From NCBI GenBank assembly GCA_024614665.1, contig GCA_024614665.1_4861.1: a stretch of DNA of 64,000 nucleotides; one strand, 5' to 3'. The notes beneath the pieces are model-generated. The model had not been told where the DNA came from, searched no databases, and saw only the letters and a program-made list of their open reading frames with translations. Shown here in pieces: positions 42,423-58,602 of the stretch. This DNA is from a phage. Within the stretch, counting starts at the first letter, position 1. Every line of letters starts with the position of its first letter. The position numbers were made by a program, and so were the translations under genes.

Positions 42423-42434
42423 GGAGATTTTTGA

Positions 42435-45400: not shown

Positions 45401-46577
45401 CTGTGGCTTTATTGCTGCGCCGTACGATAAACCAACCGGAAGAATTGCCAGCACACAATCCAGCGTTACTAATACGCTGGTTGATGCTCCTCGTGTAATC
45501 AAGAGCGTGGAAGTTCAGTCGCCTGACTGTTTAGACTATCTCCCGGTTTCAATCGCTAGCGAGTTCGCAGCCATTGGTTCACGCTGGCTTATTCGTTATC
45601 GCTATATTGTTGATACGCAGATACTGCGAATATCGACGATTAGTAAGATAGGTGGCCAGGCTTCGGCAACTGTTCGTGAGATAGAATACGACATTCCGTT
45701 TGACGCGATTGATTATTTTAAAGGTGGCGCTTTATCGATTAGTGTTACTGGCATCGAAACTGGTGAAGGCGTCACAATCAACCACGGTTTGATGGACCCC
45801 TCCACAACAGAAGTAGATTTAAATCGTTTCCATTATCTACGCTCATTATTTGAGTCGTATATTGAGCGTTCTCCAGACACCCAGTCTTCTGGGCATGAGG
45901 AGATGTCGATATCAACCGTCACGTTCGCGAACTTTGGAGATAACGTCGATAACCCGGTTACGGAATACATCACGTTGTCTGCTGCAGGCGAGGGTTATCC
46001 GGAACTTGCACCGAATGGTAAACTCCCTGCACCGTTTTACAAAGGACTGCAGAAACGTGGTGCTCCGCTACTTGAGTCGGCTCCTACAGACTATACGTCT
46101 AACGGTGGTGAATGGAAGTACGGCTTTATGCGGGCTTATCGCCCAACTCAAAATGAGCGTTTTGTGTCGGTAAATGGGACAATGCTCTCTAACTACCCTG
46201 GATACATCATCGTGGGTAGTGAGAAAATTCCGGGTAATGTTATACCTTTCAGTGCATCGACAACAGCTGTTCAGATATCTGGGACTCTTGCCCGCACGAA
46301 ACCGATGCAGCCAATTCACATCGTGTTCGTGCCTCCGGAAGGTTCTGTGCCGCCACTGCAAGCGAAGTTCACTATTAATGGTGTGGGCAGTAGTGGTAAT
46401 CCGTTGTTCGTGATTACTGAAACGACACCGGTGGAACTTCGCACAGGTGGCGAGACGGTCCTCATTGAGAAGCGTAATCCATTCCACATCCCCACCAGGA
46501 CATGGGATTGGATTTTACAAACGTTGGATACTGAACGTAGAAACGAAGGCAACAACTCGGGTGAGTGGGCCTCTTAG
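42435..46577 (+). CDS. large tail fibre / receptor-binding-like structural protein 2 (1380 aa)
   Basis: AAGGAG RBS; N-terminus RPFFEGLVV...GTDYELEYA...GVHLINPK; Gly-rich linker GGGTGGGT. Confidence 0.55.
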   Translation: MKTYPYDPRGVNPECHFIEERIIDSDNPNDRVVMLDHRPFFEGLVVTLAGSSIPLTRGTDYELEYALTPLDDSVTTPVFCGVHLINPKLRGAVVFEGQMLGGTFYSGLIEMLDELIKALNNPTAADWLLLGNRPSLYPATPAAVAWSDMLNKKYVASAVHDVELDAGAANEQIREKLTELKDTVLALGTEIATFNYPGHIASTNPHGTTAAQAGAHPVNLKTPDTFLAYGKTLRQLTSEVRALGLQQSDIDKYISKWVSKESKGVFNATISGTRALFRSPAGESEIVFSAEAFTLKSNGSVVLACGYADTTGTVRFMEWKAGINTLRIESTGSALGMDKLTLNGTTLLTTTALMGYQQDPGAGGGTGGGTVDPDDNKLYISGVNGITFTGKGSKADPVAGKVTAKPATTSEPGVVTLTDKPSDVVKGQAATPASLLPYEGDLSSYVRKTTLLNNQPMDTGSRTLTKKDLGLDLADNTADVDKPLSDSLAEAVTGLSDKGHHHNFADLQIPTASQTVPGIARYSTNLNSLSDNRGVTPNVLNDLSKRLDVVAAALANAKEDTVTDFAAVRGKTWTVGSSRTTLAVTDLNYFYLLNGARKEGTVSGSIDLQTTPMFQWFSPDNRMERTWQNAVINTGAGIDFSGFEVAVPETDYGAQIGLTTTGMGDLSVVNLLAKTWVRCDSGKLRIWVRGGGAVSVYLDGEIIAAGITEAGYLEATVKEGWKQHCLAFRAECNDSAKAAAIRFTIYDGDFAVGASDKNTKVARLQEFVKTPNGLRHYLYVNMITDALYSRAEPIVDTDGINLERGYIGYIDVPETGLVAGTTYEFETTFDFGMASELKRHFETRLAHGVSNTDWSLTDNPKMLPLNKVDPLPKQWLYAYPTNPSVSGDNLVRLDRGLFDYKFVSATSLTILLAAVVSTENASPYCWFTPSNPKENGMATFEGSVVIDTDYPEVPKTSDVEVSLNFMAPSADGKGKTRVLQWSNSKTSLNCGFIAAPYDKPTGRIASTQSSVTNTLVDAPRVIKSVEVQSPDCLDYLPVSIASEFAAIGSRWLIRYRYIVDTQILRISTISKIGGQASATVREIEYDIPFDAIDYFKGGALSISVTGIETGEGVTINHGLMDPSTTEVDLNRFHYLRSLFESYIERSPDTQSSGHEEMSISTVTFANFGDNVDNPVTEYITLSAAGEGYPELAPNGKLPAPFYKGLQKRGAPLLESAPTDYTSNGGEWKYGFMRAYRPTQNERFVSVNGTMLSNYPGYIIVGSEKIPGNVIPFSASTTAVQISGTLARTKPMQPIHIVFVPPEGSVPPLQAKFTINGVGSSGNPLFVITETTPVELRTGGETVLIEKRNPFHIPTRTWDWILQTLDTERRNEGNNSGEWAS

Positions 46578-46578
46578 G

Positions 46579-46652
46579 ACGGACTGCCTACGGGCGGGTA
46601 GTCCGTAGGTAAACCGCCCTTCCGTTATTGGGAGGGCGGTCTCCGTTTTATT
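46579..46652 (+). terminator. tandem hairpins + T-run between fibre genes (terminator/attenuator)
   Basis: acggact...agtccgt stem then accgccct/agggcggt stem followed by CTCCGTTTTATT. Confidence 0.4.
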
Positions 46653-46672
46653 ACAGATTAGGAGTGTTTGCA

Positions 46673-49600
46673 ATGCCGAGAGAAGATGCGGCGCAGTTTA
46701 ACGGTACGCTCAGTACCGCTACTTACCCGAACCGTTATTCGGCGGTCATTCCCGTCGAAGCACCGTTCTATCGCATCGGGTTAACGTTAACCGTTACCGA
46801 TAAAACAACCGGAACCAAACGCAAGTTAATAGAAGGTCTTGATTATTTCTTAGGACATTACTTCCAGGAATTAGCCGAGGCTGAGAACGATGCAATATAC
46901 GGCAGCATAATGCTGCTGAACGCCACAGAGGTAGAATACGAGTTGTTGTCGGTTGGTCGACAGTATCGCATCCCTGCTTCTGAAATCGGCAAGTATCTGG
47001 TTAAGACAGATATGAAAGACCCGCGTAACTGCGATTGGTCTGAGCTGATGAAATATCCGCCGATTATCTCGCCAATCGACCCGCCAAAAGACCTCGAAGA
47101 AGCGATTCTTCGCGATGAAATCGTAAAGGCGTTGGAAGATATCCGTCTGGGTATTTTAGAGCGCGCCCACGAGCTGGATGAGGCTTTTGCCGAAGTTACC
47201 GATTTGATTTATCAGAACGGTAAGCAGGTGTTTGAAGATGAGATGTATCAGCACCACCTGGTTAAAAACGCACACGGTTACACCTGCGGTGATATTGGCG
47301 CTCTCCCGGTACTCGGCAAAGCCGTAGATGCGACTAAGGCATTCGGACGTACCCTGGCAGAGCTAGTGACGTTAATGTCTACCAGCGGCATCCAACAGAA
47401 ACACGTTGACATGCTTCTGGATAATACCCTGGGTGATTTACTGGGCCGTATGCGTGTTCTGAATAACGACGCGATTACGTTCCAAACAACGTCTGGTCAC
47501 GTTATCAGCATGAAGGGTGAGAAGTTCATCATCACCTCGACAAAACCGCTGGTATTAAAAGCTGACCAGGATAACAACGAACCGGGTATCGCTACGGAGT
47601 TCAGTGCTGGTCTGAACACGCTTTGGGTTCACTCGGGTAAAGCAGGTGACAAGTGGGGCGATTATGATGCGGGTGTGCTTGCACCTGTGTATAATAGCGT
47701 GTATCTCGTTACACCGGATATGGTTAAGATGTACTTGACCTCGGTGAAGATACTTCCAGCAAACGCCTACTTCAAGTCCAGCGACACGTTGAAGATTTAT
47801 GGCTCTGGTAAAGAAACAAACAAAGTTTACATGAATGCGGAGCTGCCTGCAGCAACCACAACTGTGCAGGGTTTGTTTGCGATTACTAACCTTTCGGCGT
47901 CCGCTGCATCGTCCACAGCGATTTCCCAAAAAGCTGTTACTGACTTGAAGAACAAACTCGACGGATATGTGGACGACACGTATACGGTCAACGGCAAAGG
48001 GTTTGTGTTAGACGAAAACGGTCAAATGCATTTAACCTTAACCGCGTCGGATTTCGGTATTGAGAAGATGAACAATACCGGGCCGCTGGAGAAACCGGTT
48101 ACTAATGCGTTGCGCACCGTGCTATCAGGCAAGGCACTCTCAACACACACCCACACCATTGCTGATCTCGATGACGTGCCGTACGCATCCACATCTGTTA
48201 CAGGTTTGGCTAAACTGTGGGATGCTATTGACACCACAACAGATAAGATGGTTACTGCCCGCCAGGGTTTCTTGCTCGAACAGAAGATCGGTACACTGAA
48301 CGACAAGATTGCTACGTTGTTGCCAGCATGGACCGTTGGCGGATCGTCGTACGGTAACAATAACTTCTTGCCTATACCTGTCCAGGGGAACTACGAAGGG
48401 TACACCAAAAACCAAACTTGGCAAAAAGGACTGGCGCGTTACGAGGCTGGTAAGGTTTACTCGTTGCGTAATGGTTCCAACGGTAACGCCCCTGCTGACT
48501 GGGCTATCTATTACGCCTATGCTGATGTGTCGCCAAGCAATACGCTGGAAAATATGCAGCAGACGTCCGTACGTTATCACCCCGCTGGAATGTCGGCGTA
48601 TCCTGGGGTGAATCTGGTTGCTATTCTGATTACCGGTACAGATGCAATGATCTGCTTAGGCAGTGACGGTGCGTATTACCTGGTCATCTTTGACGGCACC
48701 ATTGACCATGCAAAACATCATCGTGTTGTTAAAGTTTACTTGGGCGATTACCGAAATGGTAACGCGGCCGGTGTGATTACAACCGCACCATGGGTTGCCG
48801 ATCCATCAACAAACGATTTGATCGTTTGCAACGATCGGGTTTATCTGCTCCGTACTGTGCTTACCTCCGGTGACTATTTCGTGAGTATGCGTAGCATCGC
48901 ACTCGACGAACTTAATCTGGGTGGTAGCAACACGTTTGTGGCGGATGTGTTAACGGGTGGGATGTTAACGTCGGGAGATAATATCTACTTGCGTCAGGGT
49001 CAGAAACGTTCTGATACAGATGTGTTGGTAGCGCCAGTAACACAAATCTACGCAGACGCATCGGCGAAGTGGAATAGTGCGCGAAATTTCGTCCATGGTC
49101 CGGAATGTAATCACGCGATTGCTGTGGATGGGCTGAACTTTCGTGTTGGTTTAACGCCAACAGTCTGGTTTGCTTCTACTACAGGGCAAACTATTAACTT
49201 TAAACAATGGGTGTCAAGCTTTGTTGTTGATTGCAGTTCAATGACGGTAACGCTGGAAGGGGCTGATCGATTCCCTATTGTGGCTGATCTTACCGCGGTT
49301 CGTTATAACGGTGGTGCTGAGATTGGGATTCCGAGCTGGAAGTGGGGCGAAGGTCAAGCTAATAACCGAACCTTTGCAACATCGCAAGACAAGTATATTG
49401 TTTCGCAAGGACTTTCAGGCGATCGCGACCTAATGCCTTATGTCAGGATTACAACGTTAGATGACGGTGTGAGTTGGTACGAGTACCTGTCGTGCGACTA
49501 CAACTTCACTGCCAGAAGTTTTAGTGCGGTAATGTTAAACCAAGGACGTGGTTCTATCTACGAGCTGGGTATGGCGTATCCGCTGACTCTGGGAGCGAAT

Positions 49601-51856
49601 TCCAGACTTATCTGGTTGTCACAACCGCGTACCCGTTTGGCAATTGAAGTTGAGTTTGATCCGAACACCACTTACTCAGGTAAGGCGGGGTATGGCCCAA
49701 CTAACAATCGTCGTGTAGTAGATTCTATCACGTATGAGAATCTGTCGCAGATGTGCCACATTGTTACACCGGCGTCGCCTGGTACAGAGTTAAACGGCTG
49801 GTATTGCACAGGACCAGAAACATTCCCTTACCACAACGTTTCCGGCACTTTCACGATTCATGCCGATCGATTGACGCTGTCACAAGCTGAATGGAATAAG
49901 ATGAAGCAGATGATCATCGACGGAGCACCGGCAGGCGCTGCGAATGGTTATGCTTCGGAATTTATCCTTGCTGCAAATAACGCAGGAAAGGCATTGTTTT
50001 CCGTTTGGTTCATCGGCATCGGAACGGCCACACCGCTCACATTAGCACAAGTAGCATGTACACGTACTGTGAACAATGTTAACGTGTTAGATATCTACTA
50101 CTTTACACTGAAACCAACAATCAGCAACGGGCAGGTAACATTCCCCGCAGCGATATTGGCACTGTTTGACTTCTATAACAACCTCGTCTATGGCTTGAAC
50201 TATGCTACGTTGGGAGAGATAACGGGAGGAAAAACACGCCGGCCGGGACAACCTACCATGGTGTCGGTAGATGGTACGCAGTTCGGGTTGTATCTTCCAC
50301 ACACGTTAACCTTGCGCCAAATTGGCGACTTGGGTGCGCTTAACTACGGTGTCGGTCTTACGCTGTCTAATGGTACCTGGACGCGTTCTTCTGCCCCGCG
50401 CGGCATTGGACGCATGGCACCATCACACACTCCAGTCAGCCCAGCTTATCTGGCTCATCGTGATCAGGTGATGCTACACAACTCATCTCTCGACTACGTC
50501 TATTGTGGTGGTATCGCAATGTCGTCGAGTGATTTTGTCGCGGCTCCTAATTTTAGTGGCCCGACTGAATCGGTCGTCATTGCTGGTGTGGAAACAGCCG
50601 AAGGTTGGCTGGTATATGTGACTGAGGAAGTTAACCTGCGTTTCGGCTCGAGCACTTATAAGCTGCCTACGTGGTATATTGACCTCAGCGCAGCGTTTCC
50701 AACAAACCATCAGAACCGGACATTCTACCTGCACGCCAAGGTAGAAAATGGTACACCGAAGTACGTAATGGACGTGATTCAACATCCAGACACTGAAACG
50801 GAACTCTATATCGGGTATGTTAAAACGGGCTCGTCGCGAGTCGTCGAGACTAATGTCGAACATGTTAAGCGCTTGGGTGCGGTGAAACAGCTGTTGGAAC
50901 ACGCAGCAGTTGAGAATAAGCACGATGTGGAAGTGGGAAGGGATGCAGCAACGGGCAGACTGGCACCATTACGTAAAGAAGCGATGGGTCCTTTGTCTAT
51001 CGATGGCAAGAAAGGCTATCTGGATAGTCAGTTGCTTTATACCGTATCTGACGCACAGCGTCGCGGTAAAGCGATGGTGTCCAAACGTTTCGAAGGCTTG
51101 AAAACCTTGCCGGTGTTTACTCAGGCAAACAAGTCGGGGGCGTTTTGGAAACATCCTACAACAATTGCGACGGTAACGGCCGATGAGAACGGTGAAGCGG
51201 CATCGTTGGGAATGGAGTGGGTAGGTATTCCAACGCCCGCCTTCTCTCCGACCACAACATACGCGATGGTGATGATACAAAGTAAATTCGTCGTCCCAGG
51301 TACACCTGGAGTGGAAACAACCTTTAATGTCAACATCGCCCCATGGGAGACGGTAGAAATGTTTTTCTACAACGTCGAGGCGGAAGGTAAGGATGTTAAC
51401 ATTGATGAAAGTTCAGAACTGTTAACGCCGAGACCACATACCGTGTATCACGAACAGCACTCTCTGCCCGCAGGCGTGCCATGTACGTTTACTTTCGTTG
51501 GTGTGTTGAGTTCCTCAGCGCTTGAGATGGCCAACCAGCATATTTGCTCTTGGCTTTTCACGGACGCGGGGGGACTACCAATCACCACCGATCTTTCGGA
51601 TAGTAAGATTCAAATCTTTCCAGCGGCGGGAGAGACCAACGGCACACCAGTTGTTTTTAACAGCCGTAGCTACACGTTTGTGGATGTGGCGGGTGCAATT
51701 CCGGTTGTTACCACGGGCGCTCAGGGTTTATACCCACCACCGATCGTGGCGTGGGATGGCGATGATCTTACGTTAACGATTGCGCACGATTGGGTGAACG
51801 AGAGAGGATGGCAACAGGCTAATGTTATCCAGGTCAATCTTATGTTCCGTACCTAA
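46673..51856 (+). CDS. large tail fibre / receptor-binding-like structural protein 3 (about 1727 aa)
   Basis: Start at ATG with AGGAG RBS (track ORF begins at upstream TTG); N-terminus APFYRIGLTLTV...LIEGLDYFLGHY. Confidence 0.55.
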   Translation: MPREDAAQFNGTLSTATYPNRYSAVIPVEAPFYRIGLTLTVTDKTTGTKRKLIEGLDYFLGHYFQELAEAENDAIYGSIMLLNATEVEYELLSVGRQYRIPASEIGKYLVKTDMKDPRNCDWSELMKYPPIISPIDPPKDLEEAILRDEIVKALEDIRLGILERAHELDEAFAEVTDLIYQNGKQVFEDEMYQHHLVKNAHGYTCGDIGALPVLGKAVDATKAFGRTLAELVTLMSTSGIQQKHVDMLLDNTLGDLLGRMRVLNNDAITFQTTSGHVISMKGEKFIITSTKPLVLKADQDNNEPGIATEFSAGLNTLWVHSGKAGDKWGDYDAGVLAPVYNSVYLVTPDMVKMYLTSVKILPANAYFKSSDTLKIYGSGKETNKVYMNAELPAATTTVQGLFAITNLSASAASSTAISQKAVTDLKNKLDGYVDDTYTVNGKGFVLDENGQMHLTLTASDFGIEKMNNTGPLEKPVTNALRTVLSGKALSTHTHTIADLDDVPYASTSVTGLAKLWDAIDTTTDKMVTARQGFLLEQKIGTLNDKIATLLPAWTVGGSSYGNNNFLPIPVQGNYEGYTKNQTWQKGLARYEAGKVYSLRNGSNGNAPADWAIYYAYADVSPSNTLENMQQTSVRYHPAGMSAYPGVNLVAILITGTDAMICLGSDGAYYLVIFDGTIDHAKHHRVVKVYLGDYRNGNAAGVITTAPWVADPSTNDLIVCNDRVYLLRTVLTSGDYFVSMRSIALDELNLGGSNTFVADVLTGGMLTSGDNIYLRQGQKRSDTDVLVAPVTQIYADASAKWNSARNFVHGPECNHAIAVDGLNFRVGLTPTVWFASTTGQTINFKQWVSSFVVDCSSMTVTLEGADRFPIVADLTAVRYNGGAEIGIPSWKWGEGQANNRTFATSQDKYIVSQGLSGDRDLMPYVRITTLDDGVSWYEYLSCDYNFTARSFSAVMLNQGRGSIYELGMAYPLTLGANSRLIWLSQPRTRLAIEVEFDPNTTYSGKAGYGPTNNRRVVDSITYENLSQMCHIVTPASPGTELNGWYCTGPETFPYHNVSGTFTIHADRLTLSQAEWNKMKQMIIDGAPAGAANGYASEFILAANNAGKALFSVWFIGIGTATPLTLAQVACTRTVNNVNVLDIYYFTLKPTISNGQVTFPAAILALFDFYNNLVYGLNYATLGEITGGKTRRPGQPTMVSVDGTQFGLYLPHTLTLRQIGDLGALNYGVGLTLSNGTWTRSSAPRGIGRMAPSHTPVSPAYLAHRDQVMLHNSSLDYVYCGGIAMSSSDFVAAPNFSGPTESVVIAGVETAEGWLVYVTEEVNLRFGSSTYKLPTWYIDLSAAFPTNHQNRTFYLHAKVENGTPKYVMDVIQHPDTETELYIGYVKTGSSRVVETNVEHVKRLGAVKQLLEHAAVENKHDVEVGRDAATGRLAPLRKEAMGPLSIDGKKGYLDSQLLYTVSDAQRRGKAMVSKRFEGLKTLPVFTQANKSGAFWKHPTTIATVTADENGEAASLGMEWVGIPTPAFSPTTTYAMVMIQSKFVVPGTPGVETTFNVNIAPWETVEMFFYNVEAEGKDVNIDESSELLTPRPHTVYHEQHSLPAGVPCTFTFVGVLSSSALEMANQHICSWLFTDAGGLPITTDLSDSKIQIFPAAGETNGTPVVFNSRSYTFVDVAGAIPVVTTGAQGLYPPPIVAWDGDDLTLTIAHDWVNERGWQQANVIQVNLMFRT

Positions 51857-51903
51857 CAGATAGCGCTATGGGGCAAGGAAGCCCCAATCAAAGGAGTTTG
51901 GCA

Positions 51904-53106
51904 ATGGCCGAAATCATTTATCAGTACCCGCTCGACCTTACCGGGACATTAACGTCGAACGCCGTTACGCGGCGTATTACGTTAGGTTCTGGTAAAGTTA
52001 ACCGGGCTTTTGCATTTCCTGACGGAGCTTTCTACGCGGATACTTTCCGCTTAGCGGCTGCGAACAAACCGGGTGTCTACCCGTACAAACGTGGTACAGA
52101 CTACGAGCTGATTTTTGCACATACTGCATATCAGAAAATGACCAAGAACCGCGAAGTGGTCATGGGTGTGGTGGTAACTAACTCGGCCATTCCTACAGAT
52201 ATCGAAGTCTCTGCGCAAGTCGTTGGTGGTTTTCAGTCTGCGAACGTCGAAGGCATCCGACAAGCGATTGCGTCGTTGAAAATTGAAGACCGCGTGGTGG
52301 ACTTCAAGGATCTTCGGAACGTACCCGATACGTTCCCGTCCGCACCGACGTATAAAGACCTTGGCGATATCTACGGTTTTGAGTACATCATTACCGTGCT
52401 CGCGGGGATTAAAGATGCGATTAACTCCGGCTCTGCAGTACAGCTGGAAGAAATTAAAGGTATTCTGGACGGTCTGAAAAACGACTTCCTCGATGCCTTA
52501 AATACCCACATCAACGCCGAAGGTAACGTACACAATCTCGACATTCATCAGGTTAATGGCCTGACGGAGACGGAGATTCGTGCTCTGATTCAAAGTGTAC
52601 AGACTGCCATTGACGCCACTATCAGAGATATCGGCGACTTAAGAGCAGCAGACACGGCGTTGGGGCAACGCATCGATGCAGTTGTGGCTTCGTTAGCCGC
52701 GTGGAACGACCAGCTTAATGTAGTTGCTCAAAATTACCAGAAAATGTCGTTAGCATTAGCTAACCTTAATTCTCTGGTGTTGCAATTACAGAAGAAGGTT
52801 AATGATCTTCAGTCTGCGCTGAATGAAACAAATCAGCGTGTCACGGATCTTGAGAATCAAGGCAAAGACTTCCAACAGCAAATTGATAACCTGCAAGGAC
52901 AAATCAACAGTCTTAAAACTCAGGTTGTAAACAACACCAACGCAATTTCGCAGGCAAACCAGAATCTGGCGAACCATGCGGCTGCGGATAACCCACACCC
53001 GAATTACCTCCATAAACAGTATGGCGGTGTTGTGCAGGCTGCTGTTCACGTCAACAACAACCTCACCTCGCGCGACGATGTTCAAGCTGAAGCGGGTACT
53101 AAGTAA
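51904..53106 (+). CDS. fibre-like protein with shared N-terminal domain and C-terminal coiled coil (about 400 aa)
   Basis: Start at ATG with AAAGGAG RBS; N-terminus GAFYADTF...KRGTDYELIFAH; heptad-like Q/N/L-rich C-terminus. Confidence 0.5.
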   Translation: MAEIIYQYPLDLTGTLTSNAVTRRITLGSGKVNRAFAFPDGAFYADTFRLAAANKPGVYPYKRGTDYELIFAHTAYQKMTKNREVVMGVVVTNSAIPTDIEVSAQVVGGFQSANVEGIRQAIASLKIEDRVVDFKDLRNVPDTFPSAPTYKDLGDIYGFEYIITVLAGIKDAINSGSAVQLEEIKGILDGLKNDFLDALNTHINAEGNVHNLDIHQVNGLTETEIRALIQSVQTAIDATIRDIGDLRAADTALGQRIDAVVASLAAWNDQLNVVAQNYQKMSLALANLNSLVLQLQKKVNDLQSALNETNQRVTDLENQGKDFQQQIDNLQGQINSLKTQVVNNTNAISQANQNLANHAAADNPHPNYLHKQYGGVVQAAVHVNNNLTSRDDVQAEAGTK

Positions 53107-53113
53107 CTTGTTT

Positions 53114-53160
53114 ACGAGCCGGACTATGTTTATGGACATAGTCCGCTCGTTCTACTTTTT
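53114..53160 (+). terminator. intrinsic terminator separating fibre module from Cys-peptide cassette
   Basis: cggactatgt/acatagtccg stem, then TCTACTTTTT. Confidence 0.5.
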
Positions 53161-53171
53161 AAGGAAGCGTA

Positions 53172-53564
53172 ATGGCGATATCTATTAAAGACGTCAGAAA
53201 CCGCGTCCAGATAGTCGAAGCTAACATGGCGACAGGCCCCCGTATCGACGCGCAAGTGGCCTCTAAAGCCCATAACGCGGCAGACCGATTTGGGGGTTGG
53301 ACGAAAACACAGCTAGATTGCGGCGGGACATGTTCTTGGACGTGCTCTAACGGTTGCTCGCATGGCTGTTCGAGCTGTTCAGGAAGCTGTTCTGCTTCTT
53401 GTATCGGTAGCTGTTCTTCGACGTGTGGCGGTAACTGTTCTGGTTGCTCTGGTTGTTCTGGTGGTTGCAGTAGTAGCTGTACCGGTAACTGCACAGGTGG
53501 TTGCGGTGGCTCTTGTTCCGCAAACTGCTCCGGGGCCTGCTCCGGCGGCTGTTCAGGTCGCTAA
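53172..53564 (+). CDS. Cys-rich leader+core peptide A (130 aa), candidate RiPP precursor
   Basis: AAGGAAG RBS; leader-like N-terminus (ISIKDVRNRVQIVEAN); core has about 21 Cys at Cxxx spacing. Confidence 0.6.
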   Translation: MAISIKDVRNRVQIVEANMATGPRIDAQVASKAHNAADRFGGWTKTQLDCGGTCSWTCSNGCSHGCSSCSGSCSASCIGSCSSTCGGNCSGCSGCSGGCSSSCTGNCTGGCGGSCSANCSGACSGGCSGR

Positions 53565-53574
53565 GGGGGATTAA

Positions 53575-53979
53575 ATGGCAATTGGATTAAAAGAACTGAA
53601 TAACCGATTAAACACGATCGATGCAAACGCTCTAAAGAATACCACGAATGTGCAAAACTACATTCGCAATAAAGCTACGAATAACGCCGACTTGTTCGCA
53701 GGTCAAGGCCGTTCGCACTATGACTGTGGTGGCACATGCTCTTTTAGTTGCTCGAGTTGTTCTGGCGGATGTACTGGGTCTGCGACAGGTGGTTGTGGGT
53801 CGACTTGTTCGGCAAACTGTGTATCAGGCTGTAGCAGCAGCTGCACGGGCTGTAGCTCTTCGTGCTCTGGTGGTTGTAGCGGCACGTGCACAGGCAGCTG
53901 TTCTGGGGGTTGTGGTAAATCCTGCTCCGCAAACTGCTCAGGTGCGTGCTCTGGTGGTTGTTCAGGTCCTAACTCCTAA
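53575..53979 (+). CDS. Cys-rich leader+core peptide B (134 aa), candidate RiPP precursor
   Basis: AAGGGGGA RBS; leader (IGLKELNNRLNTIDAN); core about 20 Cys; C-terminus near-identical to peptide A (SCSANCSGACSGGCSG). Confidence 0.6.
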   Translation: MAIGLKELNNRLNTIDANALKNTTNVQNYIRNKATNNADLFAGQGRSHYDCGGTCSFSCSSCSGGCTGSATGGCGSTCSANCVSGCSSSCTGCSSSCSGGCSGTCTGSCSGGCGKSCSANCSGACSGGCSGPNS

Positions 53980-53994
53980 CTGACGGAGGCTTAT

Positions 53995-54201
53995 GTGATC
54001 AGTCTCAAGACTATTCGAAACCGTCTCGTTACGGCAGAAGGCTACATTACAACCGCGCAGGCAAACAACTATATCGCTAACCAGGGCACCGTGTCAACCA
54101 CGAACAACCTGGCTGGTTTACCGCTTTCTCACTATAACTGTAATGGTGGGTGTAGCTGGTCCTGCAGCGGAAGCTGTAGCCGTGGAGCGGGGAATCGATA
54201 A
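53995..54201 (+). CDS. short Cys-containing leader+core peptide C (68 aa), candidate RiPP precursor
   Basis: GTG start 5 nt after GACGGAGG; leader (ISLKTIRNRLVTAEGY); short core CNGGCSWSCSGSCS. Confidence 0.45.
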   Translation: MISLKTIRNRLVTAEGYITTAQANNYIANQGTVSTTNNLAGLPLSHYNCNGGCSWSCSGSCSRGAGNR

Positions 54202-54223
54202 CAGAAAACGTTCGGAGTATTAA

Positions 54224-55111
54224 ATGAAAAACGATTTGCATCTTGCGTATAAAACCACATTCAACCACCCGCTGCATCTATCTTCCCCAGATTCGGTGCG
54301 TGCACACCTCGCTGACAAAGTCAGACTGATTGCACAGATTCCTGGTGAGTGGCCAAAGGTTCGTGGTCGCTTCTTGACCGACAAGAAGAACTACACCGTA
54401 GAAAATACGTTTAAGATCCGTGATATGGTTGCAGAGGCCATCGTTATCTTTAACGGCGATGGTAACTCTCGCGGCGTGTTGGTTGACGGTAAGTATTTCT
54501 TCAGTGAAGGGATTCTGAACAACAGTGTCGATTTAGAACTGATGTTTACACCGTTTGACGAACTCGAAGCAAAACCGATGGCGCGCCGTTGGTGGAGTCC
54601 GGACTATCTGGGCTCGTTCCCTTACTACTTTGTACTGGTACCTGCCGATACGGAAACGTATTTCGACACCGAACCGTACATCGATATCGAGGGATATAAA
54701 GAACTCGGCATCACCCGTTTAGCGGACATGATGGCGTATAGCTATAAGTTCGTGTGGGATAAAAAGCGTTCTGTCTGGTATGCGCTGACTGACGATTTTG
54801 AAATCACCAAACGTATTCGTAAGCCGTGGATGCAACACCTGGTTCAAACCCGATATGGGGATTACCCGGCGACAGAAGCGGATTTGAGTAAGCTGGTAAG
54901 CTTCCTCTTAACGAAGGTGGATTTAACGAAAGAAGAAGCAGAAGCTGTTTCTGAGATTCGTAGTCGTTCGGTTACGTTGGCCGATTTGAAACGCTTGAAC
55001 GAAAGACATGCCGACCTGAACAAAATTTTAGCTGCCTATCACGACCCGATGTTACTGGTGCCTGGCGCTAATGTAGACGAAGATCCTTTATTCGCCATTG
55101 ATTATATTTAA
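54224..55111 (+). CDS. hypothetical protein in Cys-peptide/radical SAM cassette (295 aa)
   Basis: Between the peptide genes and the radical SAM genes; no motif recognised. Confidence 0.5.
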   Translation: MKNDLHLAYKTTFNHPLHLSSPDSVRAHLADKVRLIAQIPGEWPKVRGRFLTDKKNYTVENTFKIRDMVAEAIVIFNGDGNSRGVLVDGKYFFSEGILNNSVDLELMFTPFDELEAKPMARRWWSPDYLGSFPYYFVLVPADTETYFDTEPYIDIEGYKELGITRLADMMAYSYKFVWDKKRSVWYALTDDFEITKRIRKPWMQHLVQTRYGDYPATEADLSKLVSFLLTKVDLTKEEAEAVSEIRSRSVTLADLKRLNERHADLNKILAAYHDPMLLVPGANVDEDPLFAIDYI

Positions 55112-55133
55112 AAATATACTGGAGCAACCTGCA

Positions 55134-56048
55134 ATGACAGATCAAGTAGAATCCAGGATCTCGTCTGAACTGTACGACAAACCGTCAATTCTGTCGGTTG
55201 TCGCAACTTCTAAGTGTAACTTAGACTGTAGCTTCTGTGGAGGGGCTTATTACATGGATAGAGAAGATACTTCTCGTGAGTTTCAACGTGAAGAGATTCT
55301 CTCGATTTTAGAGAAGAATCCGGATATCGGTGAAATTCATTGGACGGGCGGTGAGCCGCTGTTAGCGCAGCGCAAGATTGAAGACTTCGTGAACGAGTTG
55401 AAGGAGTCTCATCCGAACCTCCGTCATCACATGTACACCAACGGTTTAAAGATGCGTAAATCACATCTGCCGTTGCTGAAACAGTTCGACCTTATCTTTG
55501 TGTCCATTGACGGCTACAAGAAGTCGGAACGTCCGTTTATGAACTTTGTAAACGGTGGTAATCACGAAGCGCTGGAAGTGCTGTACGAGCTGGACAACTA
55601 TTACACCTGGGGTGTGATGACGCGTGACCAGTTAGGTGATAAACGCTGGTACGAAGATTTCATCGAGCTGCACCGAGCAATCTATCATTACCGTCCAGGT
55701 GGTATGTCGTTGCTGTTTGATGCGATGATGCCGAAACCGTTATCGCCAGACCACGTCATGAACTTCATGTACGGGTATTGGAAAATACTCGACAATATCG
55801 AACGCCTTAACATGCAGAACGATTCTGAGTGTGGGCTTGCGATCAGTAAAATGTTCGATACTGAGTGCAACACGTGCAGTGAAGTGCTGTGGCTTAACGC
55901 CGACGGTACGCAGGAGCAAATTCAGAACGCCCCAGAGATATTGGAAGTCGGCTGTAATCGCCTGGCGCGTTCTATCGGCGTTGATGCGTATAACTACATC
56001 AACCGTGTAATTTCTGCTAAGCGTAAACGGGCGGCGAACAATGAGTAA
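55134..56048 (+). CDS. radical SAM enzyme 1 (about 304 aa)
   Basis: CNLDCSFC (CxxxCxxC) near N-terminus and IHWTGGEPLL; extra C-terminal Cys; ATG with GGAG RBS (track ORF begins at upstream TTG). Confidence 0.7.
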   Translation: MTDQVESRISSELYDKPSILSVVATSKCNLDCSFCGGAYYMDREDTSREFQREEILSILEKNPDIGEIHWTGGEPLLAQRKIEDFVNELKESHPNLRHHMYTNGLKMRKSHLPLLKQFDLIFVSIDGYKKSERPFMNFVNGGNHEALEVLYELDNYYTWGVMTRDQLGDKRWYEDFIELHRAIYHYRPGGMSLLFDAMMPKPLSPDHVMNFMYGYWKILDNIERLNMQNDSECGLAISKMFDTECNTCSEVLWLNADGTQEQIQNAPEILEVGCNRLARSIGVDAYNYINRVISAKRKRAANNE

Positions 56049-57369
56049 CAGCGAACAGCAAATCCAGTACACACCACGCACGTATCAGGTTGTGACTAAC
56101 CTGTCATGTAATCTGGACTGCGAATACTGCTACGAGCGTAAATATCCTCGTAACAACAAAGTAGCAGACGTGATTGATTTTATCCACGCTTGTTTCGAGC
56201 GTGATAAAGATATCCCGAACGTTGAGGTCATCATCGATATCATCGGTGGTGAGCCGTTCATGCAGCCTAAACTTCTTTTGGCGGCCTTTGAAACCGCAGA
56301 GAAGTTATGCGCAGAACACAATCGCCCGTATATGTTCAGTATCTCCACGAACGGTACACTTCTGGACCGTCCGCTGAACAAAGAAATTATCGAGCGCTGG
56401 AAAGACAAACTGTCTATTGGGGTCTCCATCGATGGTTTACCTGAAGTCCATGACAAATATCGTATCTTTACCACGACGCGTGAAGGGTCGTACGAAGCTG
56501 CGGTACGCGGTTACAATTATCTGAAGAGTGTTGGCATCGCTGAATTAGGCGTAAAGGCGACGTTTACGATCGATACATTGCCGCACTATGCCGCCAGCAT
56601 GAAATCGTTAATTGACATGTCCGGCGGTGGTACCATTTCTGGTAACGTAACGTACGAAGATATCCTGCCGCGCCATATGGCGTTGGATATCGCGAACCAG
56701 ATGATGGACGTGATGGACTACTGGATTGAGAAGGGTCTGCACACCAACCCGCGTAACACGATTACACACATCATCCCGGATGGCCTGAACTTTATGGCAA
56801 CTTGGGACCCGGATTGGCGTGACAAACTCTTACATGACGACTCTGTTCGTCTCGACCCAGAACGCCTGAAACCGTACTGCGGTACGTTGACGCACATGAC
56901 CTGTCTCGGCTTTGATCGCAAGATTTACGGTTGTAACCGTTTCATGTCCACGGTAACTTCCCGTTCTGCTGTAGCAGAACTGGTCGGTCGTGAGTTTGTG
57001 AGCCTGGACGGTGGTAAGTTGTTAGAAGAGATTCAAACACAGTACACCAACTACCCAGAAACCTGTTTAGGGTGTCCGATGAAACACAGTTGCGGTAGCT
57101 GCGCAGCAGCATCGTACGAAAACGGTGAAGGTACACTGGAAGACCGTAAAGCGTATCACGCCGAGCGTCGTCAGTGTGGTTGGACTACTGCGAAGCTGAT
57201 GGCGGCGGAATATTGGTATCAGAAAACTGGTACGACCCGCGCATCAGATTTGCATGATAAATCCATGTGCTATTGTTCACGTTGTGTACGCCAACGTGCT
57301 GAAGCAGAAAAATTACAAAACGGAGCCCAGAATGAAGTCAATACTGATTCACAATTTTACGAAGCGTAA
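56041..57369 (+). CDS. radical SAM enzyme 2 with SPASM-like C-terminal Cys cluster (442 aa)
   Basis: CNLDCEYC and IIGGEPFMQP; C-terminal CGTLTHMTC...CLGCPMKHSCGSC...CYCSRC; ATGAGTAA overlap with enzyme 1. Confidence 0.7.
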   Translation: MSNSEQQIQYTPRTYQVVTNLSCNLDCEYCYERKYPRNNKVADVIDFIHACFERDKDIPNVEVIIDIIGGEPFMQPKLLLAAFETAEKLCAEHNRPYMFSISTNGTLLDRPLNKEIIERWKDKLSIGVSIDGLPEVHDKYRIFTTTREGSYEAAVRGYNYLKSVGIAELGVKATFTIDTLPHYAASMKSLIDMSGGGTISGNVTYEDILPRHMALDIANQMMDVMDYWIEKGLHTNPRNTITHIIPDGLNFMATWDPDWRDKLLHDDSVRLDPERLKPYCGTLTHMTCLGFDRKIYGCNRFMSTVTSRSAVAELVGREFVSLDGGKLLEEIQTQYTNYPETCLGCPMKHSCGSCAAASYENGEGTLEDRKAYHAERRQCGWTTAKLMAAEYWYQKTGTTRASDLHDKSMCYCSRCVRQRAEAEKLQNGAQNEVNTDSQFYEA

Positions 57370-57898
57370 ACTGCACTTGGTCGATCGCTTCCTGCGCAAA
57401 AGCAAGCTGTACAATGTGCACGCAATTGTGGCAGGGGAAGACTTCACTGATGAAATCCAAAGCCTGTTGATTAAATACGGGCTGAATGTGATGATCCCGG
57501 TCTACTGCGTTGAGAAAGGACACGAGTCTGTCGCGGAAATCGAAAAGCGCAACCCCGGCTTTGAGAAGCGACTGCTTGCATACCCACGCCACAAAATCGA
57601 ACTGCTACGTCACTCTATTGATGAAGCCAGTCCTGAAAGTTTAGTGGCTTTGGGCTTGTCTTTCCCGCGGATGCGTATTCGTAACTTACGCTCCAATAAC
57701 CCGGTTGACGCTTATTACACAGAGCGTCAAATCTTCGAAGAACACCTGCTCCCGCAGTTGGAAGAAGAAGAGCAACACAACATTTCTCTGTTGTGGGCCG
57801 GTAACCTCGATCAGGACTTCCAGATGCTGGACTTCGGTTTGTTGTTAGAACTTGGCCTGATTGAGGAGGACGAATGTCTGTTACTGACAAAAGCTTAA
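57332..57898 (+). CDS. hypothetical protein in cassette (about 188 aa)
   Basis: Start at ATG with GGAG RBS (MKSILIHNF); overlaps end of radical SAM 2. Confidence 0.45.
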   Translation: MKSILIHNFTKRKLHLVDRFLRKSKLYNVHAIVAGEDFTDEIQSLLIKYGLNVMIPVYCVEKGHESVAEIEKRNPGFEKRLLAYPRHKIELLRHSIDEASPESLVALGLSFPRMRIRNLRSNNPVDAYYTERQIFEEHLLPQLEEEEQHNISLLWAGNLDQDFQMLDFGLLLELGLIEEDECLLLTKA

Positions 57899-58545
57899 CG
57901 AACGAAGAGATCCGCGCCCGTTATTTCCAGCGTGATTTGCCGATTGATCGTCACGGTAATTTCATGGAACGAATCGGTGCGCAGGATCAGGGCCGTACAG
58001 GCTTTTGCGCTCTGCTCCATTATCATCTCATCGAAGGGATGTCTGATAAAGAAGCCCTGGCACGCATGAAGCTGTATGAGATGTCGGAGATTGAAGCTAA
58101 CTTCACATTGAAACGCACGAAAGAGTTTATTGCTAATGTGCTGGAGATTGACCTCGACGAAATTCGCGGGAATCTGAAATCTACCGCACGTTACATTTAC
58201 GAAGACGTGCAGAAGATGCTGTTGGAGCTTGACCACCGCTACGAAGATGAGCGTCATGGTTATATCGAGTTTGAAGGTAGTCACTTTCAAGCCGATGAAT
58301 CGTCGCGTACCATCCTCGGTCAATACATTCAGGCAGATACCGCACCAGAATACTGGCTCGATACGCTGAATACTAAGCACAGTCCGTTTACAGTAGCCCA
58401 ATGTAAAGCGTTGCTGGCCGCTATTGTTGCACGTGACCAAGTGTTGCACTCAGCAATGGCAGATAACAAACGCCATATCCGTGAGTTAGCTGAAAAGCGC
58501 GATTACACTGGATTAAAAACATTGTCCGAATCTCTCGGCATTTAA
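57874..58545 (+). CDS. hypothetical protein in cassette (223 aa)
   Basis: GGAGGA RBS; followed by bidirectional terminator. Confidence 0.45.
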   Translation: MSVTDKSLTNEEIRARYFQRDLPIDRHGNFMERIGAQDQGRTGFCALLHYHLIEGMSDKEALARMKLYEMSEIEANFTLKRTKEFIANVLEIDLDEIRGNLKSTARYIYEDVQKMLLELDHRYEDERHGYIEFEGSHFQADESSRTILGQYIQADTAPEYWLDTLNTKHSPFTVAQCKALLAAIVARDQVLHSAMADNKRHIRELAEKRDYTGLKTLSESLGI

Positions 58546-58547
58546 GC

Positions 58548-58602
58548 AAAGAAAATAAAGGCCCTACCTCCCTTCGGGGAGGTAGGTACCTTATTTTATT
58601 TC
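58548..58602. terminator. bidirectional intrinsic terminator
   Basis: A-rich run, stem cctacctccc/gggaggtagg, T-run CCTTATTTTATTTC. Confidence 0.6.

What the first reader, a model, noticed from the sequence alone, without database searches (positions are those of the whole stretch)
53172..54201. Leader/core architecture and tandem duplication of the Cys-rich peptide genes
Seen: peptides A and B share a conserved leader-like N-terminus (I-x-[IL]K-[DE]-[VL]-[RN]NR...AN), a DCGGTCS core entry and near-identical C-termini (SCSANCSGACSGGCSG), yet differ in the middle of the core; peptide C has the same leader type with a short core (CNGGCSWSCSGSCS) and a GTG start. Cores are almost only Cys/Ser/Gly/Thr. 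Inference: a multi-precursor family evolving by tandem duplication with core diversification and a conserved recognition leader, as in many RiPP loci. The Cxxx periodicity suggests regularly spaced crosslinks (thioether or disulfide ladder).
Basis: partly seen in the sequence, partly recalled or inferred. Interest (0 to 1): 0.8.

Follow-up and report, generated by a model that had tools for sequence, protein, structure and literature searches.

The report
Radical-SAM-targeted cysteine-repeat tail-fibre tip proteins
Three small, unannotated cysteine-repeat proteins of a giant Salmonella phage are real genes that probably form enzyme-crosslinked tips of a tail fibre rather than a secreted peptide, and the same module occurs in many unrelated phages.

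Summary
Three adjacent genes (A 53172-53564, B 53575-53979, C 53995-54201) encode paralogous proteins. Each has a helical N-terminus of about 50 residues, a conserved C-x-G-x-C-S-W entry motif and, in A and B, about 20 Cys spaced every fourth residue. Substitutions between related phages fall almost only on third codon positions of this frame. The ORF annotated here in phage SPN3US (gp166) is therefore a wrong-frame artefact.

The window is an SPN3US-like jumbo phage. The genes lie between a virion fibre gene (gp167) and a cassette of gp165 (unknown fold), a small radical SAM enzyme (gp164) and a SPASM radical SAM enzyme (gp163). The best family match of gp163 is the "CXXX-repeat target" maturase.

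The leader/core RiPP reading is only partly supported:
- The A/B/C triad is ancient and stable across five phage genera.
- The Cys array is at least as constrained as the "leader".
- In unrelated phages of several tail types, the same junction plus Cys array is the C-terminus of true tail-fibre proteins, next to the same cassette.

Most likely A/B/C are fibre-tip subunits crosslinked by the radical SAM pair. The chemistry and virion location are untested.

The parts
51904..53106 (+). gp167, a 400-aa virion fibre protein. Its N-terminal domain is shared with the large fibre/baseplate paralogues gp168-170, followed by a long coiled coil and no distal domain. It is the proposed shaft that carries A/B/C.
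   Evidence: phrog_2163 'virion structural protein' at E 8e-109, with coiled-coil hits. Translation. Detected in purified SPN3US virions at spectral count per mass (SC/M) 1.90 (PMC5694885 Suppl. Table 1). The shaft role is inference.
53114..53150 (+). Conserved hairpin followed by a T-rich tract (to about 53161) between gp167 and peptide A. It resembles a terminator or RNA-stability element.
   Evidence: Free energy -24.1 kcal/mol, z -3.7, 0 of 200 shuffles as stable. A hairpin plus T tract sits at the same position in 9 phages of 4 genera, with different stem sequences that still pair.
53172..53564 (+). Peptide A (130 aa): N-terminal helical region of about 49 aa, the entry motif DCGGTCSW, and a (C-[ST]-G-x) array with 21 Cys.
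   Evidence: Not annotated in SPN3US GenBank or RefSeq.
53575..53979 (+). Peptide B (134 aa): a paralogue of A with 20 Cys and the junction KATNNADLFAGQGRSHYDCGGTCSF.
   Evidence: AF2 predicts helices at residues 5-21 and 23-34 (pLDDT about 74), and the core is unpredicted (pLDDT about 40). The wrong-frame annotated ORF gp166 (53648-53983) overlaps it.
53995..54201 (+). Peptide C (68 aa, GTG start): the same N-terminal type and entry motif NCNGGCSWSCSGSCS, but no long array.
   Evidence: Orthologues in Derbicusvirus and Wellingtonvirus keep only C-x-G-x-C-S-W.
54224..55111 (+). gp165 (295 aa), a conserved cassette partner of unknown fold and function. It was not detected in virions.
55134..56048 (+). 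gp164, the small radical SAM enzyme (304 aa from ATG 55134; an upstream TTG at 55098 is also open). It has the CNLDCSFC cluster motif and four C-terminal Cys, and no SPASM match.
   Evidence: PF04055 at 58.6 bits. Weak match to the HxsC paired-rSAM family at 45 bits. Homologues lie in the cassettes of L007-L011. It is fused to the SPASM enzyme in L018 (668 aa).
56041..57369 (+). gp163, the SPASM-type radical SAM enzyme (442 aa) and proposed maturase of the Cys arrays.
   Evidence: Best NCBIfam match is TIGR04115 at 125.6 bits (cut-off 350); PapB scores 113.6. The closest solved structure is CteB 5wgg at E 3e-10. Across 23 homologues C27, C30, C280, C298, C342, C345, C351, C354 and C379 are invariant, and C23 and C288 are kept in at least 90%.
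57332..57898 (+). gp162 (188 aa), a co-oriented downstream gene of unknown function and a possible accessory.
   Evidence: phrog_7988. A homologue directly follows the SPASM enzyme in L008. Translation. Not in the virion list.
57874..58545 (+). gp161 (223 aa), a DUF4376 protein and the last gene before the terminator. Its membership of the system is uncertain.
   Evidence: PF14301 at 36.3 bits. phrog_8169. No homologue was found in the other cassettes.
58563..58586 (.). Strong bidirectional terminator-like hairpin that closes the + strand gene block.
   Evidence: 10-bp stem with 7 G-C pairs and T tracts on both strands.

Best explanation
A, B and C are small structural subunits associated with a tail fibre, not precursors of a free peptide.

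Each has three parts:
- a short N-terminal helical segment with heptad-like hydrophobic spacing, which would attach or oligomerise;
- a conserved junction, N-A-x-x-L-x-G-x(5)-[YL]-x-C-x-G-x-C-S-W;
- in A and B, a (C-[ST]-G-x) array of about 20 units.

The array is the substrate of a dedicated maturation cassette encoded immediately downstream. The cassette comprises gp165 (unknown fold, possibly a substrate-presenting partner), gp164 (small radical SAM enzyme) and gp163 (SPASM radical SAM enzyme with two auxiliary clusters).

By analogy with the nearest characterised relatives (CteB, PapB, QhpD), the enzymes most likely install intramolecular Cys-S-to-carbon (thioether) links. This would turn a flexible Cys/Ser/Gly chain into a rigid, protease-resistant rod or knot. 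The modified protein stays intact and forms the distal tip of a fibre whose shaft is probably gp167.

What is shown:
- The genes are real and under strong purifying selection.
- The cassette is conserved.
- In other phages the same domain is the C-terminus of true tail-fibre proteins.

What is inferred:
- That modification occurs at all.
- Its chemistry.
- Absence of cleavage.
- Virion incorporation.
- The partnership with gp167.
For: 1. Homologues of gp163 at 30-47% identity lie in tail-fibre modules of unrelated phages, next to fused fibre proteins that end in the same junction plus array:
- L007, a Deferribacter prophage: GpJ-type tail protein, then a 302-aa fibre with HxH repeats ending KATNADQLGGQAGSYYRCSDCSWTCSS... 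(29 Cys), then a gp165-like protein and two rSAM enzymes.
- L009: a 258-aa fibre.
- L010: a T4-like phage with a 568-aa fibre carrying precomputed Pfam PF27846.
- L011: a 271-aa protein with the Pfam Phage_tail_fib N-domain, a coiled coil and an array.
- L018: a T7-like phage with a Phage_T7_tail gene, a 206-aa Cxxx protein, a partner and fused double rSAM.
- L019: a siphovirus-type prophage.
2. PHROG scans support the fusion. The L058 451-aa protein matches tail-fibre PHROGs in its N-terminal part (E 2.7e-32). Its C-terminal part matches phrog_6085, the family of A/B/C, covering profile positions 36-124. The L053 protein follows a 'central tail fiber J' gene and matches phrog_6085 positions 18-91.
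3. In IMG/VR, 482 or more stretches encode relatives of gp163. Of 65 non-jumbo loci, 61 have a Cys-array ORF within 7 kb. The arrays are mostly C-terminal, in proteins of 168-937 aa.
4. The array is strongly constrained in sequence and length.
5. gp167 is a virion protein, while gp161-166 were not detected in virions, as expected of assembly or maturation factors (PMC5694885).
6. gp163 has a complete SPASM Cys signature, and its nearest solved relative is the thioether-forming CteB.
7. Fusion of the two rSAM enzymes in L018 argues that they act together.
Against: - No experiment shows that A/B/C are modified or present in virions. The SPN3US proteome searches could not find them, because the ORFs were not in the annotation.
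- In the jumbo phages the proteins are short and lack any recognisable fibre domain, so a free-peptide fate is not excluded.
- AF2 gives no confident structure for the array.
- The family scores of gp163 and of the peptides are below the curated cut-offs, so the chemistry cannot be transferred.
- The core lacks the Asp acceptors of PapB substrates.
- gp165's function is unknown, and it could be a protease of a novel fold.
- Bacterial CXXX-repeat proteins carry Tat export signals, which shows that the domain can also work as an exported product.
Confidence: 0.52

Rival explanations
1. Classical RiPP. A/B/C are precursors whose N-terminal 50 residues are a recognition leader. The radical SAM enzymes crosslink the core, the leader is removed, and the product is released at lysis as an antimicrobial, signalling or anti-defence peptide.
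For: - Short ORFs in several copies sit directly upstream of two radical SAM enzymes.
- They resemble the CXXX-repeat target and maturase families.
- The N-termini of the paralogues are similar.
- Bacterial relatives are small exported proteins.
Against: - No protease, exporter or RRE-type domain was detected.
- The core is not diversifying.
- The 'leader' is homologous to an internal segment of tail-fibre proteins.
- The cassette sits in tail-fibre modules in every phage type examined.
- The triad and the array lengths are fixed across five genera.
Confidence: 0.17
2. A/B/C are non-virion assembly factors. They would act as transient scaffolds or chaperones for fibre trimerisation, with or without modification, and would be discarded after assembly like other tail-fibre chaperones.
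For: - The neighbours gp161-166 were not detected in virions.
- Phage fibres commonly need dedicated chaperones.
- The genes lie in the fibre module, next to a gene annotated as a tail assembly chaperone.
Against: - In other phages the array is covalently part of the fibre protein at its distal end, which is not a typical chaperone position unless it is auto-cleaved.
- Very strong sequence constraint on a low-complexity array is unusual for a chaperone.
Confidence: 0.13
3. The Cys arrays are not radical SAM substrates. They bind metal ions or form disulfide ladders on their own, as tail fibres do with His-bound iron, and the radical SAM enzymes act on another target.
For: - Fused homologues also carry HxH repeats. 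Such repeats are known from solved T4 fibre structures to bind metal (own knowledge).
- High Cys density is typical of metal-binding proteins.
- No modification has been demonstrated.
Against: - Arrays and SPASM enzymes co-occur tightly across very different phages: 61 of 65 IMG/VR loci, on the same strand and usually adjacent.
- Independent curators defined the array as a radical SAM target (TIGR04114; PF27846).
Confidence: 0.1
4. The ORFs are not genes. They would be chance open frames in a repetitive GC-rich stretch, and the annotated Ala/Val-frame ORF (gp166) would be the real gene.
For: Public SPN3US, SaP7 and several Erwinia phage records annotate other frames or the opposite strand.
Against: - Substitutions are concentrated at third positions of the Cys frame, for example 3/1/44 and 0/0/20.
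- Shine-Dalgarno sequences are conserved.
- The non-repetitive N-termini are conserved in frame.
- The family is recognised as phrog_6085.
Confidence: 0.01

Closest known systems
CXXX-repeat radical SAM target/maturase system (NCBIfam TIGR04114 'tSAM_targ_Cxxx', TIGR04117, TIGR04115 'rSAM_Cxxx_rpt'; Pfam PF27846). It is defined bioinformatically, and I know of no published chemistry (own knowledge).
   Same: - Cys at every fourth residue in a Ser/Gly/Thr-rich array.
- An adjacent SPASM radical SAM enzyme, for which TIGR04115 is the best-scoring family.
- An entry motif such as DCNGSCSW also occurs in bacterial members, for example P0273.
   Different: - All scores are below the curated cut-offs: 125.6 against 350 for the enzyme, and 18.5 or less against 20 for the peptides.
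- Bacterial members are about 100-140 aa with twin-arginine signal peptides, and some have their own TatA/TatC genes.
- The phage version has no signal peptide.
- The phage version adds a second radical SAM enzyme and the gp165-like partner.
- It lies in tail-fibre modules and is often fused to fibre proteins.
Ranthipeptide and SCIFF (six cysteines in forty-five residues) maturases PapB, CteB and Tte1186, with their peptides freyrasin and thermocellin
   Same: - SPASM radical SAM enzymes act on Cys-rich repeats.
- PapB makes six Cys-to-Asp C-beta thioethers in CX3D motifs (PMC10177961).
- CteB is the closest solved structure to gp163.
- PapB is gp163's second-best family.
   Different: - gp163 starts directly with the radical SAM core, whereas the match begins at CteB residue 106.
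- The phage cores have no Asp acceptors and only 5-7 Thr.
- Scores are far below cut-off (113.6 against 340; 53.9 against 425).
- The substrates are 130 aa or whole fibre proteins, not peptides of 45 aa or less.
QhpD/QhpC of quinohemoprotein amine dehydrogenase (own knowledge of the system; family match)
   Same: - A SPASM radical SAM enzyme installs Cys thioether crosslinks in a protein subunit that stays part of a larger assembly rather than becoming a free natural product.
- This is the closest functional precedent for modifying a structural protein.
   Different: - Only a distant family match (TIGR03906 at 55.5 bits against a cut-off of 453).
- QhpC is not a repeat array.
- There is no phage or fibre context.
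His-Xaa-Ser repeat system with paired radical SAM enzymes HxsB and HxsC
   Same: - A short-period repeat target sits next to a pair of enzymes, one SPASM-type and one smaller radical SAM.
- gp163 matches HxsB (75 bits) and gp164 matches HxsC (45 bits).
   Different: - A different repeat (HxS, not Cxxx).
- Scores are far below the cut-offs (370 and 268).
- No phage context is known to me.
Metal-stabilised tail-fibre tips, for example the T4 gp37 and gp12 HxH iron or zinc sites (own knowledge)
   Same: - Periodic metal-ligand or crosslinking residues stiffen a thin distal fibre domain.
- Fused homologues (L007, L009) carry HxH repeats upstream of the Cys array.
   Different: - Those fibres need no radical SAM enzymes.
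- Their ligands are His, not Cys.
- No sequence similarity.

Membership tests
TIGR04114 / PF27846 CXXX-repeat radical SAM target | Score at or above the curated HMM cut-off (20 bits) | tested here: not met
   A scores 18.5, B 17.1 and C 13.7 bits. PF27846 is absent from the local Pfam copy: the L010 protein that carries the precomputed hit gave no hit locally.
TIGR04114 / PF27846 CXXX-repeat radical SAM target | Tandem array with Cys at every fourth residue | tested here: met
   Spacing of 4 in 17 of 20 gaps in A and 16 of 19 in B. C has only 4 Cys.
TIGR04114 / PF27846 CXXX-repeat radical SAM target | Encoded next to a SPASM radical SAM enzyme of the TIGR04115 type | tested here: met
   gp163 lies 1.8 kb downstream on the same strand, and TIGR04115 is its top family. 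The co-occurrence recurs in 61 of 65 viral loci.
TIGR04115 CXXX-repeat-target radical SAM maturase | Score at or above the curated cut-off (350 bits) | tested here: not met
   125.6 bits, with the best stretch covering residues 18-235 of the protein.
SPASM-domain radical SAM enzymes | A CxxxCxxC cluster motif plus the seven-Cys auxiliary-cluster signature | tested here: met
   CNLDCEYC is at residues 23-30. Across 23 homologues C280, C298, C342, C345, C351, C354 and C379 are invariant, and C288 is kept in at least 90%. The Pfam SPASM model itself did not hit.
RiPP precursor (leader-core logic) | A leader recognised by an RRE or dedicated binding domain of the maturase | tested here: inconclusive
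   The gp163 match begins at CteB residue 106, so gp163 has no N-terminal extension. No PqqD/RRE family was detected in the cassette. gp165 has an unknown fold and could bind the substrate.
RiPP precursor (leader-core logic) | Leader removal by a protease, with export of the core | tested here: not met
   No peptidase or transporter family was found in genes 54224-58545. Actual cleavage cannot be tested with these tools.
RiPP precursor (leader-core logic) | In multi-precursor families, a conserved leader with a variable core | tested here: not met
   Core pN is at or below N-terminal pN in Seoulvirus and Erskinevirus. The result is mixed in Wellingtonvirus, and the Derbicusvirus pair is not cleanly alignable.
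Ranthipeptide (PapB-type) | NF047865 score at or above 340 bits, and CX3D (Cys...Asp) acceptor motifs in the substrate | tested here: not met
   113.6 bits. The A and B arrays contain no Asp after the entry motif.
Phage tail-fibre protein | A recognisable fibre domain in the protein itself | tested here: not met
   A/B/C hit only phrog_6085, of unknown function, and no Pfam fibre family.
Phage tail-fibre protein | A homologous domain found as part of annotated fibre proteins, and location in a fibre gene module | tested here: met
   L058 combines tail-fibre PHROGs with phrog_6085. L011 has Pfam Phage_tail_fib above its cut-off. L053 lies downstream of a tail fiber J gene. The window genes lie between gp167-170 and a gene annotated as a tail assembly chaperone.
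Phage tail-fibre protein | Presence in purified virions | not testable with these tools
   The published SPN3US virion proteome used an annotation that lacks A/B/C.

The most novel reading that the evidence does not exclude
Phages of many lineages (jumbo myoviruses and T4-like, lambda-J-type and T7-like phages, plus a Firmicute-type siphovirus prophage) build the distal tips of tail fibres from a Cys-Xaa3 repeat domain. A dedicated radical SAM pair, with a novel-fold partner, crosslinks this domain inside the infected cell. RiPP-type radical chemistry would thus be installed on a virion structural or receptor-binding protein, a class of phage protein maturation not described in any source I could search. 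In SPN3US-like phages the tip would be split off as three small subunits (A, B, C), possibly forming a heterotrimer on the gp167 shaft.
Probability: 0.4. Interest if true: 0.85.

Novelty: new variant of a known kind. Interest (0 to 1): 0.72.

Why it matters
If correct, this links two fields that have not met: radical SAM peptide chemistry and phage host-recognition machinery.

- It would give the first function and biological context for the uncharacterised CXXX-repeat radical SAM target family.
- It would add a new kind of post-translational maturation to tail-fibre assembly. This matters for engineering phage host range and stability.
- It would explain why several jumbo phages used as models (SPN3US, phiEaH2, CR5) carry two radical SAM genes in their tail module.
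- It corrects the annotation of SPN3US. gp166 is a wrong-frame call, and three conserved genes are missing, so they have been invisible to the published virion proteomics.
- The system is directly testable, because SPN3US has an amber-mutant genetic system and established virion mass spectrometry.

Tried and rejected
- **Literature.** Ten full-text searches found no description of this system. They covered SPN3US with radical SAM; CXXX-repeat; TIGR04115; jumbo phage with RiPP; tail fiber or fibre with radical SAM, thioether or cysteine-rich; and RiPP with prophage and tail. Hits checked were irrelevant. The paper on radical SAM target peptides that I expected to describe this family was not held under the PMC id I tried.
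- **Pfam on the peptides.** Nothing was found, and PF27846 is not in the local copy.
- **AF2 of peptide B.** Only the N-terminal helices are modelled, and the array has pLDDT of about 40, so it is uninformative.
- **Promoter scan.** No sigma-70-type promoter lies upstream of A. This says little, because these phages use their own RNA polymerases (vRNAP subunits are listed in PMC5694885).
- **The search for related loci with the gp165 profile.** It reached only jumbo phages. The gp163 profile was needed to reach further.
- **Double-glycine leader idea.** The F-G-G or A-G motif lies 8-10 residues before the first Cys. I rejected this reading because no C39 peptidase or ABC exporter is present and the same motif is internal in fused fibre proteins.
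- **Recent gene conversion between the A and B 3' ends.** Support is weak. Same-phage A-B tail identity is 0.78, against 0.66-0.68 across genera, and the shared DNA segment is only 74% identical.
- **Alternative reading frames.** Rejected by the codon-position test.
Full report
**What the window is.** Bases 51800-56000 are 99.2% identical to Salmonella phage SaP7 and 98.5% to SPN3US (Seoulvirus, 240-kb jumbo myovirus). In SPN3US numbering the + strand block reads as follows:
- gp170, gp169 and gp168, the large 'baseplate/tail fiber candidate' paralogues;
- gp167, a 400-aa virion protein;
- the finding;
- gp165 (295 aa);
- gp164, the small radical SAM enzyme;
- gp163, the 442-aa radical SAM enzyme;
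- gp162;
- gp161 (DUF4376).

A strong bidirectional terminator at 58563-58586 closes the block.

**Observation.** The three ORFs are exactly as described. Each has its own Shine-Dalgarno sequence, and the gaps between them are only 10 and 15 nt. A and B are 47% identical over their whole length (E 2e-13). The cores consist of Cys, Ser, Gly and Thr, with Cys spaced every 4 residues in 17 of 20 and 16 of 19 gaps. The repeat unit is C-[ST]-G-x.

The repetitive DNA is open in several frames, and public records annotate other frames. SPN3US gp166 is the Ala/Val frame at window 53648-53983, and A and C are missing. I therefore tested the frame with diverged orthologues:
- In the A core, window versus STsAS has 48 differences, distributed 3/1/44 over codon positions of the Cys frame (pS 0.75, pN 0.022).
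- EaH2 versus Asesino has 20 differences, all at third positions.
- B and C behave the same way.

The Cys frame is the gene, and gp166 is an artefact. All three proteins match phrog_6085, a family of unknown function.

**Evolution of the triad.** tblastn finds the N-terminal 56 residues in 73 phage records, down to 35% identity. I extracted A, B and C from 11 phages of Seoulvirus, Erskinevirus, Machinavirus, Derbicusvirus and Wellingtonvirus.
- N-terminal identity is 0.54-0.58 within a type and 0.28-0.33 between types. The triplication therefore predates these genera and has been kept as a fixed set.
- Lengths are nearly constant: A 127-130 aa, B 132-142 aa, C 68-69 aa.
- The array is at least as constrained as the N-terminus. 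For A in Seoulvirus, pN is 0.02-0.05 against 0.13-0.19. For A in Erskinevirus it is 0.000 against 0.082. Wellingtonvirus is mixed, and the Derbicusvirus pair has indels that spoil the comparison.
- C in Derbicusvirus and Wellingtonvirus keeps only C-x-G-x-C-S-W and no further Cys. Across all homologues aligned, the two Cys and the Ser of C-x3-C-S are invariant, and the following Trp is kept in at least 90%.

This is not the 'conserved leader, diversifying core' pattern.

**The enzymes.**
- gp163 has the CNLDCEYC motif and a complete seven-Cys SPASM signature conserved across 23 homologues.
- Its best NCBIfam match is TIGR04115, 'radical SAM peptide maturase, CXXX-repeat target family' (125.6 bits, cut-off 350). 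PapB follows at 113.6 bits, and weaker matches include HxsB, SCIFF, QhpD and anSME.
- Its closest solved structure is the thioether-forming CteB (5wgg, E 3e-10). The alignment starts at gp163 residue 22 and CteB residue 106, so gp163 lacks an N-terminal extension.
- gp164 is a shorter radical SAM protein with CNLDCSFC and four C-terminal Cys. It resembles HxsC-type 'paired' enzymes only weakly.
- The peptides score 18.5, 17.1 and 13.7 bits on TIGR04114 (cut-off 20).
- The gp165 family is rare: 50 clusters among 1.84 billion representative proteins.

**The decisive context.** Homologues of gp163 outside the jumbo phages sit in tail-fibre modules, and there the Cys array is the C-terminus of a long fibre protein.

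| Locus | Phage type | Array-bearing protein and its neighbours |
|---|---|---|
| L007 | Deferribacter abyssi prophage | GpJ-type tail protein; 302-aa protein with HxH..RYYTExE fibre repeats ending KATNADQLGGQAGSYYRCSDCSWTCSSSCTGSC... (29 Cys); gp165-like protein; two rSAM enzymes |
| L009 | GpJ-type tail module | 258-aa fibre ending YYRCSGCSWTC...; partner; three rSAM enzymes |
| L010 | T4-like, next to a gp13 neck gene | 568-aa fibre ending FYTCGGSCSWSC... (30 Cys; precomputed PF27846) |
| L011 | not assigned | 271-aa protein: Pfam Phage_tail_fib N-domain (above cut-off), coiled coil, Cys array; partner; two rSAM enzymes |
| L018 | T7-like | Phage_T7_tail adaptor; 206-aa Cxxx protein; partner; the two rSAM enzymes fused (668 aa) |
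| L019 | siphovirus-type prophage | tape measure protein, Dit, Tal, collagen fibre; 226-aa Cxxx protein; rSAM; holin |
| L008 | not assigned | short peptides like A, B and C, beside Peptidase_S74 fibre proteins and a gp167-like protein |

Further support:
- The gp165 profile detects the partner in L007, L008, L009, L011, L018 and IMG/VR loci L053-L059.
- Of 65 non-jumbo loci, 61 carry a Cys-array ORF within 7 kb. Nearly all are on the enzyme's strand, mostly upstream, and mostly with the array at the C-terminus of proteins of 168-937 aa. One array has 103 Cys.
- PHROG scans tie this to fibres. The L058 451-aa protein matches tail-fibre PHROGs in its N-terminal part (E 2.7e-32), and its C-terminal part matches phrog_6085 at profile positions 36-124.
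- The L053 protein follows a 'central tail fiber J' gene and matches phrog_6085 at positions 18-91.

Most of the so-called leader of A/B/C is therefore homologous to an internal shaft-to-tip segment of fibre proteins (alignment).

**Interpretation.** It is found in distant phages, though not in the close relatives.

I conclude that A/B/C are best read as fibre-tip subunits whose arrays are matured by gp163 and gp164 with gp165. gp167 has the N-terminal domain of the gp168-170 fibre paralogues and a long coiled coil, but no distal domain. L011 has these elements and the array in one chain. SPN3US may therefore split shaft (gp167) and tip (A/B/C). This last point is inference.

The published virion proteome detects gp167-173 but not gp161-166 (PMC5694885 Suppl. 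Table 1). That fits non-structural maturation factors. It says nothing about A/B/C, which were not in the annotation.

The chemistry is unknown. Thioether links are the best guess from the CteB, PapB and QhpD kinship (PMC10177961). However, the arrays lack PapB's Asp acceptors, and every family score is below its cut-off.

AF2 models only the N-terminal helices of B (residues 5-21 and 23-34). It leaves the array unstructured, as expected if folding needs crosslinks, partners or oligomerisation.

**Rivals.** I rate the alternatives as follows:
- a true leader-cleaved RiPP released at lysis, 0.17;
- a discarded assembly factor, 0.13;
- an unmodified metal- or disulfide-binding domain, 0.10;
- 'not genes', refuted.

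**Relation to known systems.** This works like the CXXX-repeat radical SAM target system, but it fails the curated membership thresholds and differs in several ways:
- it has no Tat signal, whereas bacterial members have one, and L020 even encodes TatA/TatC;
- it has a second radical SAM enzyme and a novel-fold partner;
- it lies in tail-fibre modules.

I found no publication describing this in ten searches of the held library. That library is incomplete.

**Verdict.** The RiPP-style leader/core reading is partly supported, and the tandem-duplication/diversification reading is not. The most likely identity is a phage tail-fibre-associated, radical-SAM-matured Cys-repeat domain, which is a new variant of a known but uncharacterised kind.

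Noticed in passing
window 53648-53983 (+): The ORF annotated in SPN3US GenBank and RefSeq as gp166 (SPN3US_0166 / ACQ60_gp100, 111 aa, Ala/Val-rich) is the wrong reading frame of peptide B. Several related phage records annotate wrong-frame or opposite-strand ORFs here, and A and C are often missing.
   Followed up: yes
window 53114-53161 (+): A stable hairpin (-24 kcal/mol, z -3.7) followed by a T tract lies between gp167 and peptide A. A hairpin is kept at this position in four genera with different, still-pairing stem sequences. It may set the expression ratio of the fibre gene to the peptide/maturation genes.
   Followed up: partly
L020:5001-8809 (ENA ERZ28593662): A bacterial CXXX-repeat target (97 aa, with a twin-arginine signal and the entry LDCNGSCSW) is followed by a radical SAM enzyme, two unknown genes, and its own TatA and TatC. 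This suggests export of an already crosslinked or folded product.
   Followed up: no
L080:2932-4434; L018:8330-10336: An IMG/VR phage protein of 500 aa carries an uninterrupted run of 103 Cys at 2-5 residue spacing. In a T7-like phage the two radical SAM enzymes are fused into one 668-aa protein.
   Followed up: no
window 54224-55111 (+): gp165 yields a confident AF2 model (pLDDT 89, pTM 0.85) with no structural match in PDB or BFVD. Its family has only about 50 clusters in 1.84 billion representative proteins. It may be a new fold tied to this cassette.
   Followed up: partly
window 38718-53106 (+): Three large paralogous fibre/baseplate proteins (gp170, gp169, gp168) and gp167 share an N-terminal domain (phrog_2163). 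Three large paralogues alongside three small Cys proteins may or may not be a coincidence.
   Followed up: no
L019 and IMG/VR loci L061-L115: A large class of prophage proteins of about 170-500 aa has a conserved N-domain of about 115 aa (motif LKxxVxxExxRR) followed by very long Cys arrays, next to more distant SPASM enzymes. In L019 such a gene sits between a collagen-like fibre gene and the lysis genes.
   Followed up: partly
public records LR535901, LR535904, LR535907, LR535912 and others (Salmonella phages SPFM1, 7, 9, 14...): These records match the region only as 40 broken pieces covering 58% of the query, and their predicted proteins are frameshifted. The assemblies are probably rich in sequencing errors.
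   Followed up: no
window 58563-58586: A perfect 10-bp G+C-rich hairpin has T tracts on both strands. It separates the + strand fibre/maturation block from the convergent gp160 gene and acts as a bidirectional terminator-like site.
   Followed up: no
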